Source of the DNA: Ophelia neglecta
Lineage: Eukaryota
NCBI GenBank assembly: GCA_965285935.1
Contig: CBDIWN010000008.1
Span: forward strand, 372,001-436,000
Length of the DNA: 64,000 bases
Reading direction: 5' to 3'
Position numbers: made by a program. Shown here piece after piece: positions 33,001-36,000 of the stretch (within the stretch, counting starts at the first letter, position 1; every line of letters begins with the position of its first letter).

Positions 33001-36000
33001 TATAAGCTTCCAGGTCTTCCTCTTTAACACAAGTTCCCTCATCAAGTTTTTTTGTAGCCGGGAAGTCGTAATATATCGTATGGGGGTTGTCCTCATCTAA
33101 GGTACCCTCAAAGCTTGGGTTGCCTATTTCTTTCACAAATTGCGTGTCGGCGAGGTCTTTGGCACGTCCTATGCAATGGAAAAACAAAAAAAAAAACATC
33201 TTGTTGAAACGTGTCTAAAGCATATATAGCAATTTGTTGAGAATAAAGCAACATTTAATTTTACATACAAAGACGTGCGTTACTTACGGGAAGGTTTTTT
33301 AACAGACGCATAACTTGGCATTTCTTCAATTTTAGAACCAACATTGTCCTGCGATTGCTTGCGCCATTTCCTTCTACGATTGTAAAAAGAAGTGTTGAAG
33401 AAGAGTTATAAAATTGGTAGCGATGTTATTGCGTAATCCTTTTCAAGAAGCGCTGTCAATTATGTGGCAAACTAAAACCATAATGTGAAATAATGTGCCT
33501 ACAACGTAGGGCCTACGAGATGATTATTTTTCAATAGTTACACACTTGAGAAAAATTACAACAAGAATTACTACAAGGACAGCTATCAGCAGGACGGCCA
33601 CGACAGATCCGGTAATAGGACCGACCAGTCCTGGCAGGCCTCTCGCACTGACGCTTGGGTCTGGATGATTGCACAGATATGCGAAATTGACGTTGGTCAA
33701 AAAGTCGTAAATATATTGTTATCATTCACTGCACTTTAATGGGGAATTAAACTTACACAGGGGATAGTTTGGCTTGCCATAAATATATTGAAATTGCAGG
33801 AGAAGATATGCGTTTGACGCAACTAAATACGACACCACTTTTTCCTGACTTATTTTCGATATTTGTGACAAAATAATTATAAGTTCAATGTAATTTTAGT
33901 TTTATTAACCTTGCTCCTGTGCAGCCAAAGTAGTAGCTAAGACTGTCGTGGCTTTGCGGGAGTCTTCCTCTTTTATCCCAGGCAATTGTCGATAGATGTT
34001 TACTGTGATCCAATACGTAGAATTCGCAGCAAGATTTGGCAATGTTTGGTTATATTTCATTAAGACATTATCTTCTCTGATTGCTATCATAAACGGTTCA
34101 ACCTCTGTCTTATTTGCATCGAACGCAGTGATTTTGTAGCCATATACAGCCGATGTATTCAATGGAATAGCTTTAACATGCGGCCATTCAATGGTTACGC
34201 TGTCAGTTTGCAACTTGGTAATGATAACTTTGTTTCCCTCAGGATACTCCACGTACCCTGTTCCCAAGAAAAAACAAAACGGTTGTAAAGTGTTTTCATT
34301 GATAAACAAACACGGAATAGATACTGTTTTCATTAATGTGTTTCCGTTAATTATAAAAAAACGGAATAGATACACGGTAATAAAAGCAACATCATTCATC
34401 GAGAATAGTGCGTTAAATCTGTCAGAAATCATCAGGAACCACAAGCCGAGGGCCTTTGTAGGTAGCACGGTGATTAGTTTTCATTCTGCTATAAATGTTT
34501 GTTTCTTAAATAATGCAATAAGTGGAATAAAACTGATTGTGCTTACCTATAGACTGGTTACAATGATCTCCAGCATACCATGTATCGTACGGTGGAAGCT
34601 GACAACCGTGACTGCATGATCCACTGTATTGATGACAAGTCGTTATTTTATCTACAGCCTCACAGTAACTACTACACGGTTGATCGCAGGTTTTGCCATA
34701 ATAACCACTGTGACATGTGCAGGACCCAGAATACCTTTCACACACGGGGTAACCTTGCTCACCAGAACACTGGCATGTTTTATTGCAGTATTCGCCATAA
34801 GAACCGTCCTTGCACCCATGATTACAAATTCCGCTAAACTGGTTACAAGACCCAGAGGCTGTCTTGTCGACAGGCTTACAACCTGAACCGCACTATGTTT
34901 CACAAAATCCACCGAACCTGCTATCCTTACAGCCCTGAGAGCATGTTCCGTTGTCTCGGGCACATATAGGTTTTCCATTTATACCATCACAGTAGTCACT
35001 GCAGGGTAAGGTACATGAATTACCGTAGTAACCATTTTGACAACCGTTGTTACAATGTCCTGTATCTCTGTGACAAGTGTTGGAGTCTGTGATAACAAGA
35101 CATTTATGGTTACATTGGCTCTGACACTGGTCTCCAAAGTATTGATCCAGACAACCACTCGTGCATCGTCCATCAGCGACAGAACATATCTGATTAACAC
35201 AATTTGCGCTGCAGGTTGAGGAACACATCGTACCATAATAACCACTTTTACAACCATTCTGACAATCTCCTGTTTCTCTGTTACAAGTGATGGAGCCTGA
35301 GATAACACTACATCCATTGCTGCAGCTCAGATGACACGTGACCCCGTAGTATTGGGCTCTACACCCCTGAGTACAACTACCAGAGTCTCGGTTACAGACT
35401 TCTAAGCTGTCAATACGGTGGCAGTTAGTACTGCACCAACTAGTACATGTATTTCCCCAATATCCTGGAATACACCCATTATTACAACGGCCATCAGAGA
35501 GAGAACATTGCCGAGAGTTGGAACCCTGAACAAAGAGGCAATGCGCACTACATTGGAAATTACAGTTGATACCGTAATGGTCTTTGTCACATTCTGTAAG
35601 GTACATCATATGTCATAATTCAAGATTATAACGATTATTATTATTTAGCATGGTACCGGATGTTACCACTATGGCACTGCCTAACATATAATGAAAGTTA
35701 ACACGGTAAGCCTACCTTGATATTGTCTAAAAGATAATGTACGTTAAAATGGTAAGCCTACCTCAAACTGTCTAACATATAATGAACGTTAACACGGTAC
35801 ACCTACCTTTACACTCTGGGTACTTAGAGTTCTGGGTACATGTAGAGCAGCCAATTAAAGGATCGCATGACTCACATCGGCTACTCTGACACACTGGAAT
35901 AACAGGTGGGTGTTAAAAAGCAACTGCAAGCTTCAGGCAAACATCAAGGTAAATTTAGAGGGTTGATATAATTTTCCGTAGTGCGTTTATATCTATCTAA

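What the first reader, a model, noticed from the sequence alone, without database searches (positions are those of the whole stretch)
34893..34895. Single nonsense codon in an otherwise intact 25-exon phosphatase receptor: null allele, secreted decoy or skippable exon
Seen: GAA ACA TAG TGC in C, where A has ACA GAG TGC and B has ACA AGG TGC. The frame continues open, and all 19 downstream exons keep splice sites and D1 catalytic motifs. Termination would give an approximately 486-aa signal peptide + lectin + 6 EGF protein with no TM. The exon is 1047 nt and phase 1-1, so skipping it restores a short-stalk full receptor. Inference: a very recent or polymorphic loss-of-function allele (probably an NMD target), a soluble form, or a consensus error.
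Basis: partly seen in the sequence, partly recalled or inferred. Interest (0 to 1): 0.65.

Follow-up and report, generated by a model that had tools for sequence, protein, structure and literature searches.

The report
One stop codon in phosphatase receptor
One of three neighbouring copies of an invertebrate cell-surface phosphatase receptor gene carries a single premature stop codon in an otherwise intact 25-exon gene, most likely a very young knock-out variant, which is an ordinary kind of finding.

Summary
On the minus strand, 34895-34893 reads TAG in frame (GAA ACA TAG TGC) inside a 1047-nt, phase 1-1 exon encoding nine Cys-rich EGF-type repeats. I built a 25-exon model (41977-26724, 1418 codons). 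All 24 introns are GT-AG, phases agree, and this is the only in-frame stop. The gene encodes signal peptide, Cys-rich module, F5/8-type-C lectin, EGF repeats, FN3, a hydrophobic span and two tyrosine-phosphatase domains. The paralogs have GAG and AGG at that codon, so one G-to-T change from GAG suffices. Downstream exons show long-term purifying selection (omega about 0.3) and no second lesion, so the stop is very young. The best reading is a recent or polymorphic null allele in a redundant tandem family. A consensus base error cannot be excluded without reads. Nothing supports an evolved soluble decoy, RNA editing or a hidden intron. In-frame exon skipping or cryptic-donor use is possible but untested. 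One correction: paralog B is a 5' partial duplicate with no membrane or phosphatase exons. No close relative was found in the protein libraries (at most 44% identity). Interest is low.

The parts
34893..34895 (-). In-frame TAG. It is codon 494 of 1418 in the model and residue 233 of exon 6. It lies between the 38th Cys (residue 230) and the 39th Cys (residue 234) of the exon, in the short C-x3-C spacer that opens the 7th repeat.
34547..35593 (-). Exon 6: 1047 nt, phase 1-1, nine roughly 37-43-aa six-Cys EGF-type repeats (56 Cys). It holds a 107-aa block absent from paralogs A and B, and lacks a 2-aa block they have.
   Evidence: Pfam EGF_laminin hit on the 3' part (23.3 bits, cut-off 21).
41902..41977 (-). 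Exon 1: ATG plus a hydrophobic signal-peptide-like stretch, conserved in all three copies.
38841..38993 (-). Exon 2: Cys-rich module with 8 Cys. An alternative acceptor at 39008 is also possible.
37429..37644 (-). Exon 3: first half of the F5/8-type-C (discoidin-like lectin) domain.
   Evidence: PF22633 36.3 bits, PF00754 31.2 bits.
36167..36415 (-). Exon 4: second half of the F5/8-type-C domain.
   Evidence: It aligns with the N-terminus of P0001, which carries PF00754.
35807..35893 (-). Exon 5: small 6-Cys module, phase 1-1.
33910..34257 (-). Exon 7: fibronectin type III module, 348 nt, phase 1-1.
   Evidence: fn3 18.3 bits, below the cut-off of 25. The paralog exons reach 26.6 and 26.8 bits. 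Also.
33546..33660 (-). Exon 8: a 23-residue hydrophobic stretch read as the membrane span.
   Evidence: by inspection only; no TM predictor was run.
32954..33373 (-). Exons 9 (33373-33288) and 10 (33168-32954): juxtamembrane region and the start of the D1 region.
28969..32337 (-). Exons 11-18: phosphatase domain D1. Coordinates are 32337-32250, 31982-31912, 31254-31215, 30944-30847, 30718-30590, 29852-29707 (WPD loop and VHC), 29601-29466 (SAGIGRTG and Q-loop region), and 29118-28969.
   Evidence: Y_phosphatase on 5 segments here: 4 above the 20.9-bit cut-off, 1 at 20.7.
26721..28632 (-). Exons 19-25: phosphatase domain D2, which keeps a C-x5-R motif split across the exon 23/24 junction. Coordinates are 28632-28533, 28417-28344, 28102-27968, 27847-27710, 27511-27363, 27147-27012, and 26795-26724, followed by the normal stop at 26723-26721.
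   Evidence: Y_phosphatase on 2 segments.
1..6834 (-). Paralog A (gene 1). The homologues of exons 1-11 are all open, and the gene runs off the left end of the window. It has GAG at 2860-2858.
13571..20727 (-). Paralog B (gene 2), a 5' partial duplicate. The homologues of exons 1-7 are open. No membrane or phosphatase exons follow. It has AGG at 14457-14455.

Best explanation
Gene C is a receptor-type protein tyrosine phosphatase in a tandem cluster of three paralogs. Its architecture is signal peptide, Cys-rich module, F5/8-type-C lectin, nine EGF-type repeats, FN3, membrane span, then phosphatase domains D1 and D2. In the sequenced haplotype, one base substitution turned a sense codon in the 7th EGF repeat into TAG. 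The simplest path is G to T at the first position of a GAG-like codon, as in paralog A. Translation would stop after 493 residues and leave only a secreted-type N-terminal fragment: signal peptide, Cys-rich module, lectin and six EGF repeats. That fragment lacks FN3, the membrane span and both phosphatase domains. With 19 exon junctions downstream, the mRNA is also a candidate for nonsense-mediated decay. The allele is therefore most likely a null or strongly reduced-function allele. It is very young, either segregating or only recently fixed, and tolerated because paralogs sit next door. Shown here: the stop, the intact remainder of the gene, the paralog codons, and long-term constraint on the downstream exons. 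Inferred: that the base is real, that decay occurs, that function is lost, and that redundancy explains tolerance.
For: The TAG is in frame in homologous coding sequence, and the alignment to both paralogs runs gap-free across it. It is the only in-frame stop in 25 exons (1418 codons), and all 24 introns are GT-AG with consistent phases. D1 keeps the [14 protein letters not shown] and Q-loop regions aligned to solved receptor phosphatases.

Omega against the paralogs is 0.25-0.39 for the part of exon 6 after the stop. It is 0.30 for exons 7-11 pooled against A and 0.29 for exons 1-5 pooled against A, so the region after the stop was under selection for most of its history.

In this gene, 613 of 12627 possible single-base changes (4.85%) create a stop. 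There are also 96 essential splice bases. I assumed an indel rate of about 0.1 per substitution, which is my own assumption. On these figures, about 730 x d disabling events are expected per neutral divergence d. Seeing no second lesion bounds the time since loss of constraint at d below roughly 0.4%, or below about 1% if indels are ignored. For comparison, dS is 0.25-0.31 between A and B and 0.5-0.9 between C and A or B.

No frameshift occurs in any of the 43 homologous exons of the three copies. The change is a substitution outside any long homopolymer. This speaks, weakly, against an error-prone consensus.
Against: No reads, population data or transcripts were available, so a wrong consensus base cannot be excluded. 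No protein from the same or a close species was found that could show the allele in another individual. NMD and loss of function are inferred from general knowledge, not shown. Whether NMD in this unidentified invertebrate depends on exon junctions is unknown. In-frame rescue routes exist on paper: skipping exon 6 and phase-1 cryptic donors upstream of the stop. The allele may therefore not be a complete null.
Confidence: 0.55

Rival explanations
1. Assembly or consensus error: the true base gives a sense codon and gene C is simply intact.
For: Everything else about the gene is intact. A single base explains the whole finding. No independent sequence of this locus could be found to confirm the TAG.
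Against: The difference is a substitution in non-repetitive, non-homopolymer context. None of the 43 exons of the three copies shows a frameshift, which is the commoner error type in long-read consensus (the error-type statement is recalled). Only 4.85% of random substitutions in this gene would create a stop. The assembly's quality is unknown to me.
Confidence: 0.25
2. The stop is bypassed at the RNA level. Exon 6 is skipped (phase 1-1), or an in-frame cryptic donor upstream of the stop is joined to exon 7. Either route gives a shorter-stalk but complete receptor.
For: Exon 6 is symmetric (phase 1-1), and the exon 5/exon 7 junction codon would be Gly. Nine phase-1 GT sites with crude donor score of at least 4 of 7 lie upstream of the stop. 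One of them (last exon base 35024) scores 5 of 7, the same as the real donor. Exon 6 length varies between paralogs by a net 105 codons, so stalk length is evolutionarily flexible.
Against: There is no transcript evidence. The cryptic donors follow from the recurring Tyr-Gly codons of the repeats and are also present in a normal exon. Skipping would remove all nine EGF repeats, a form seen in neither paralog. For an internal in-frame intron spanning the stop, the best of 384 in-frame GT..AG pairs (of 1466) scores 8.5, below the median of 9.36 for the 24 model introns. The best short candidate (84 nt) is shorter than any model intron, whose minimum is 105 nt.
Confidence: 0.08
3. The truncated product is a selected, functional soluble lectin-EGF protein (a decoy or ligand trap).
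For: The fragment would keep the signal peptide, the lectin and six EGF repeats. The cluster already holds an ectodomain-only copy, B. Its exons 1-7 are all open, its last exon reads into a stop after two codons, and an AATAAA lies about 75 nt downstream.
Against: Neither paralog has a stop here. If truncation were old and selected, the 19 downstream exons should have decayed, yet they are intact with omega about 0.3. A transcript with 19 downstream junctions is a poor design for a stable mRNA (inference). The stop falls inside the EGF array rather than at an exon or module boundary used by copy B.
Confidence: 0.07
4. The stop is recoded by A-to-I editing of UAG to UGG (Trp) or by translational read-through.
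For: Trp occupies the equivalent repeat position in repeat 2 of the same exon, so Trp would be tolerated. The taxon is unknown, and some molluscs edit heavily (recalled).
Against: The 240 nt around the stop fold no better than shuffles (z = +0.81; 162 of 200 shuffles fold at least as well), so no double-stranded editing substrate is evident. The base after the stop is U, with no known read-through context (recalled).
Confidence: 0.03

Closest known systems
Classical tandem-domain receptor protein tyrosine phosphatases (LAR/PTP-sigma and PTP-alpha/epsilon are the best solved matches, taken exon by exon)
   Same: A single hydrophobic span is followed by two PF00102 domains. The D1 exon with the WPD loop best matches PTP-sigma/LAR D1 (E = 2.4e-16). 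The P-loop exon best matches PTP-epsilon/alpha (E = 3.2e-20). D2 keeps a C-x5-R motif.
   Different: The ectodomain combines an F5/8-type-C lectin with EGF-type repeats and one FN3, not the Ig/FN3 arrays of LAR or the short ectodomain of alpha/epsilon (the vertebrate architectures are recalled). In D1, WPD is followed by KLTP where the solved relatives have HGVP. The motif in exon 11 reads RNRF; the usual KNRY form is recalled.
P0001, Saccostrea cucullata 'cell death abnormality protein 1-like, partial' (NCBI name), and unnamed library proteins P0029, P0052, P0061, P0063
   Same: The same architecture: F5/8-type-C domain, EGF-type repeats and phosphatase domain(s) (precomputed Pfam).
   Different: P0001 is only 32% identical over the exon-6 fragment, and the best library hits are 40-44%. 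D1 exons map at about 30-36% in tblastn. Orthology is not established. None carries information on this codon.
MEGF10/CED-1-type multiple-EGF proteins
   Same: Tandem six-Cys repeats of roughly 37-43 aa with Gly-aromatic-aromatic-Gly motifs. NCBI named the oyster relative after CED-1.
   Different: Here the repeats form the stalk of a phosphatase receptor. Of the 30 library relatives scanned, 15 carry phosphatase domains and 5 carry tyrosine-kinase domains.
Premature-termination (nonsense) alleles in duplicated gene families
   Same: A single stop in an otherwise intact open reading frame, with intact paralogs alongside.
   Different: Nothing differs in kind. Frequency and expression are unknown here.

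Membership tests
Classical receptor-type protein tyrosine phosphatase (PF00102, tandem D1-D2) | Sequence match to the tyrosine-phosphatase domain profile | tested here: met
   7 of 90 minus-strand segments in 17038-39154 match Y_phosphatase. Six are above the 20.9-bit cut-off and one is at 20.7. They cover profile positions 11-225 (D1) and 40-76 plus 177-221 (D2). Tested exon by exon only.
Classical receptor-type protein tyrosine phosphatase (PF00102, tandem D1-D2) | Catalytic Cys and Arg in the H-C-x5-R P-loop of D1 | tested here: met
   VHC ends exon 16 and (S)AGIGRTG opens exon 17. Both are aligned column by column to solved phosphatases.
Classical receptor-type protein tyrosine phosphatase (PF00102, tandem D1-D2) | General-acid Asp in the WPD loop of D1 | tested here: met
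   The query's WPD aligns with the WPD of PTP-sigma D1.
Classical receptor-type protein tyrosine phosphatase (PF00102, tandem D1-D2) | Signal peptide and single membrane span | tested here: inconclusive
   Hydrophobic stretches in exon 1 and exon 8 were read by eye. No signal-peptide or TM predictor is available.
Classical receptor-type protein tyrosine phosphatase (PF00102, tandem D1-D2) | Phosphatase activity | not testable with these tools
   This would need an enzyme assay.
F5/8-type-C + EGF-repeat phosphatase receptors of invertebrates (as P0001, P0029) | N-terminal F5/8-type-C domain | tested here: met
   PF22633 at 36.3 bits and PF00754 at 31.2 bits on exon 3.
F5/8-type-C + EGF-repeat phosphatase receptors of invertebrates (as P0001, P0029) | EGF-type repeat array similar to that of family members | tested here: met
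   P0001 at 213 bits. 1445 library proteins at E <= 1e-3. Of the 30 scanned, 15 have phosphatase domains and 5 of those also have F5/8-type-C.
F5/8-type-C + EGF-repeat phosphatase receptors of invertebrates (as P0001, P0029) | Orthology to a named member | tested here: not met
   Best identity is 32-44%. There were no hits for the exon-10 query (0 of 52 candidates) or for near-length proteins (0 of 24).
Pseudogene | At least one disabling lesion | tested here: met
   One in-frame stop.
Pseudogene | Signs of lost constraint (several lesions, omega near 1) | tested here: not met
   No second lesion in 25 exons or 24 introns. Omega is 0.25-0.39 after the stop. This measures long-term history and cannot see recent relaxation.
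Pseudogene | Fixed in the species and not expressed as protein | not testable with these tools
   No reads, population data or RNA data.
Selected soluble ectodomain isoform | Truncation conserved in relatives, or a dedicated terminal exon or polyadenylation site | tested here: not met
   Paralogs have sense codons. The stop lies mid-exon with 19 intact exons after it.

The most novel reading that the evidence does not exclude
The cluster repeatedly makes soluble lectin-EGF ectodomains from a phosphatase receptor. Copy B would do so by a 5' partial duplication that ends right after the FN3 exon. Copy C would do so by a nonsense allele kept at appreciable frequency, perhaps under balancing selection in a recognition or immune-type family. 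The TAG allele would then be a functional secreted variant rather than junk.
Probability: 0.05. Interest if true: 0.5.

Novelty: new member of a known kind. Interest (0 to 1): 0.18.

Why it matters
If real, this is one more young loss-of-function allele in a tandemly duplicated receptor family. It is useful for annotation: gene C should be flagged as carrying a premature stop rather than modelled around it, and copy B as a truncated duplicate. It is also a small data point on gene turnover in expanded invertebrate receptor families. It would matter more only if population and RNA data showed the truncated form is common and expressed. The lectin-EGF-FN3 phosphatase-receptor architecture has no studied member that I could find. 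Two literature searches (listings and abstract starts only) turned up nothing on it.

Tried and rejected
1. Looked for the same or a close species' protein to see the codon in another individual or annotation. The exon-6 5' part against longer proteins gave 1 hit of 268 candidates, at 32% identity. Against near-length proteins it gave 0 of 24. Exon 10 against longer proteins gave 0 of 52. The exhaustive HMMER search gave at most 44% identity. No orthologue was found, so this route is closed.

2. Naming the library hits with the listing of cluster members was not possible (database switched off). The taxa of P0002-P0151 therefore remain unknown. The source organism is only inferred to be an invertebrate, possibly a mollusc, from the one named hit.

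3. Hidden in-frame intron around the stop: rejected as unsupported.

4. RNA editing substrate: no excess structure.

5. Internal DNA repeats in exon 6 that could cause mis-assembly: only one weak 20-nt family was found.

6. dN/dS as a test of recent relaxation: computed, but it only reflects the long shared history (dS 0.5-0.9). It cannot date the stop beyond the 'no second lesion' argument.

7. Whether copy B is still constrained: ambiguous. Pooled omega for A versus B is 0.46, dS varies from 0.03 to 0.45 between exons, and intron K is 0.154.

8. Literature: two searches gave nothing specific, and one search was mis-worded.

No structure prediction was run.

10. The closed collections (metagenome and viral contigs) and paper supplements were not consulted. 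The genome-contig scan (bacteria and archaea only) was not used, as it is irrelevant to a eukaryotic gene.
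Full report
**Observation.** The window has no N and about 37% G+C. The plus strand at 34893-34895 reads CTA. On the minus strand this is TAG, in the context GGT GGA TTT TGT GAA ACA TAG TGC GGT. Translating 35600-34540 on the minus strand gives one long open frame of Cys-rich repeats broken only by this stop. The exon runs from 35593 (after ...ttacag) to 34547 (before gtaagc). It is 1047 nt and phase 1 at both ends. The feature is on the minus strand.

**Gene model.** I listed all stop-to-stop segments on the minus strand. 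I scanned 90 of them (17038-39154, at least 45 aa) against Pfam.
- Seven segments match the tyrosine-phosphatase profile.
- One segment matches F5/8-type-C, with two related profiles.
- One segment matches EGF_laminin.
- One segment matches fn3 weakly.
- Two further hits fall below their cut-offs and look like chance.

I then searched every junction for GT/AG pairs with compatible phases. I used conservation with the two paralogs to find the 5' exons.

The result is a 25-exon model from the ATG at 41977 to the normal stop at 26723-26721. It has 1418 codons. All 24 introns are GT-AG, phases are consistent, and there is exactly one in-frame stop, in exon 6. Three boundaries are not unique: the exon 2 acceptor (38993 or 39008) and the exon 3 donor / exon 4 acceptor pair. 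These choices shift the count by a few codons and do not affect the frame.

The order of parts is:
- Signal-peptide-like exon 1.
- An 8-Cys module (exon 2).
- F5/8-type-C lectin (exons 3-4).
- A 6-Cys module (exon 5).
- Nine six-Cys EGF-type repeats (exon 6; 56 Cys).
- FN3 (exon 7).
- A 23-residue hydrophobic span (exon 8).
- Juxtamembrane exons 9-10.
- D1 (exons 11-18).
- D2 (exons 19-25).

**Catalytic motifs.**
- Exon 16 best matches D1 of PTP-sigma and LAR (E = 2.4e-16). Its WPD and terminal VHC align to theirs.
- Exon 17 best matches PTP-epsilon and PTP-alpha (E = 3.2e-20), with AGIGRTG and the Q-loop region aligned.
- D2 keeps a C-x5-R motif across the exon 23/24 junction.

Two minor departures are KLTP after WPD and RNRF in exon 11. 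That these differ from the usual forms is partly recalled knowledge.

**Paralogs.** Three copies lie head to tail on the minus strand.
All 11 of the 11 exon homologues that fit in the window are open.
Only exons 1-7 are present (7 of 11; exons 8-11 gave no hit).

The A/B duplication unit is 1980-7446 against 13571-21422. It ends exactly at the end of the FN3 exon. No phosphatase match exists anywhere between 13500 and 6900. This rests on 0 of 65 minus-strand segments and on the blastn and tblastn runs. So B is a 5' partial duplicate encoding an ectodomain only. This corrects the picture of three full receptors.

At the stop position, A has GAG (2860-2858) and B has AGG (14457-14455). TAG is one step from GAG. 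Compared with A and B, C's exon 6 has an extra 107-aa block and lacks a 2-aa block.

**Age and constraint.**
- Within exon 6, downstream of the stop: omega is 0.39 against A and 0.25 against B.
- Exons 7-11 pooled against A: omega is 0.30.
- Exons 1-5 pooled: omega is 0.29 against A and 0.26 against B.

The region after the stop was therefore under purifying selection for most of the time since C split from A and B (dS 0.5-0.9). This cannot detect recent relaxation.

A rough bound comes from the absence of any second lesion. In this gene, 4.85% of single-base changes create stops (613 of 12627). Adding 96 splice bases, the start codon and an assumed indel rate of 0.1 per substitution (my assumption), no further lesion implies neutral divergence below about 0.4% since constraint was lost. 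Without the indel assumption the bound is below about 1%. That is polymorphism-scale, and far younger than the A/B duplication (dS 0.25-0.31, intron K 0.154).

**What the stop would do.**
- Termination after 493 residues leaves the signal peptide, Cys-rich module, lectin, 6-Cys module and six repeats, and no FN3, membrane span or phosphatase.
- The stop lies 348 nt upstream of the exon 6/7 junction, with 19 junctions after it. By the junction rule known from vertebrates (recalled), the mRNA would be an NMD target.
- Whether that rule applies in this animal is unknown.

**Alternatives tested.**
- **Hidden in-frame intron.** 1466 GT..AG pairs inside exon 6 span the stop, and 384 of them are in frame. 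The best crude score is 8.5. The 24 model introns score 6.5-11.57 with a median of 9.36. The best short candidate is 84 nt, below the shortest model intron of 105 nt. This reading is not supported.
- **Exon skipping.** It is in frame, with a Gly junction codon.
- **Cryptic donors.** Nine phase-1 GT sites of crude score at least 4 of 7 lie upstream of the stop. One, at 35024, scores the same as the real donor and could join exon 7 in frame. These routes are possible but untested. The donors are a by-product of the repeat codons.
- **Editing.** The 240 nt around the stop fold no better than shuffles (z = +0.81).
- **Mis-assembly through repeats.** Only one weak 20-nt repeat family occurs in the exon.
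- **Consensus error.** This cannot be excluded. Weak points against it are that the change is a substitution outside homopolymers, and that none of the 43 homologous exons has a frameshift.

**Relatives and taxon.**
- The only word-index hit is an oyster protein, P0001 (Saccostrea cucullata, 'cell death abnormality protein 1-like, partial'). It is 32% identical and has the same F5/8C-EGF-phosphatase architecture.
- The exhaustive search with the 5' part of exon 6 found 1445 proteins at E <= 1e-3, none above 44% identity.
- I scanned 30 of the 150 listed, choosing long ones among the top 78. Of these, 15 have phosphatase domains, 7 have F5/8-type-C domains (5 of them together with a phosphatase), and 5 have tyrosine-kinase domains.
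- The architecture is therefore a known, automatically annotated kind, but no orthologue is at hand.
- Names for these hits could not be obtained.
- I do not take the contig for human. Its architecture, composition and only named relative point to an invertebrate, possibly a mollusc, but this is not established.
- Two literature searches (listings and abstract starts only) found nothing on this receptor type.

**Verdict.** The finding is real and correctly described. It is most likely a very young nonsense allele (null or hypomorph) of one member of a tandem receptor family (0.55). A consensus error is the main rival (0.25). The decoy, skipping-rescue and recoding readings are not supported by anything in the sequence, but only RNA and population data can exclude them. 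It is an ordinary finding of modest annotation value.

Noticed in passing
window 13571-20727 (minus strand): Paralog B is a 5' partial duplicate. Its exons 1-7 (signal peptide to FN3) are all open, and similarity to paralog A stops exactly after the FN3 exon. The exon keeps a GT donor. If unspliced, it reads into a stop after two codons, and an AATAAA lies at 13553. It may encode a naturally secreted ectodomain or be a dead fragment. Omega against A is 0.46, which is ambiguous.
   Followed up: partly
window 43698-48984 and 48981-54280: A 5.29-kb direct tandem duplication at 99.17% identity. Each copy holds a sulfotransferase-like reading frame (PF00685) on the plus strand. The Pfam match jumps between three frames with no room for introns (47149-47775 and 52361-53071). 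Both copies therefore look like the same frameshifted pseudogene, or the duplication may be an assembly artefact.
   Followed up: partly
window 2504-3244, 14101-14841 and 34547-35593: The EGF exon differs in length between copies. C has a 107-aa block of about 2.5 repeats that A and B lack. Synonymous divergence between A and B varies from 0.03 (exon 2) to 0.45 (exon 7), which suggests gene conversion or a mosaic history in the cluster.
   Followed up: partly
library proteins P0011, P0022, P0024, P0027, P0031: Five of the 30 scanned relatives of the EGF-repeat exon carry a tyrosine-kinase domain instead of a phosphatase. Very similar EGF stalks therefore sit on both kinases and phosphatases in these unnamed, probably invertebrate, proteins.
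   Followed up: no
window 32250-32337 and 29707-29852: D1 of gene C has RNRF in the recognition-loop motif and KLTP after WPD. These are departures from the forms I recall as usual. Their effect on substrate binding is unknown.
   Followed up: no
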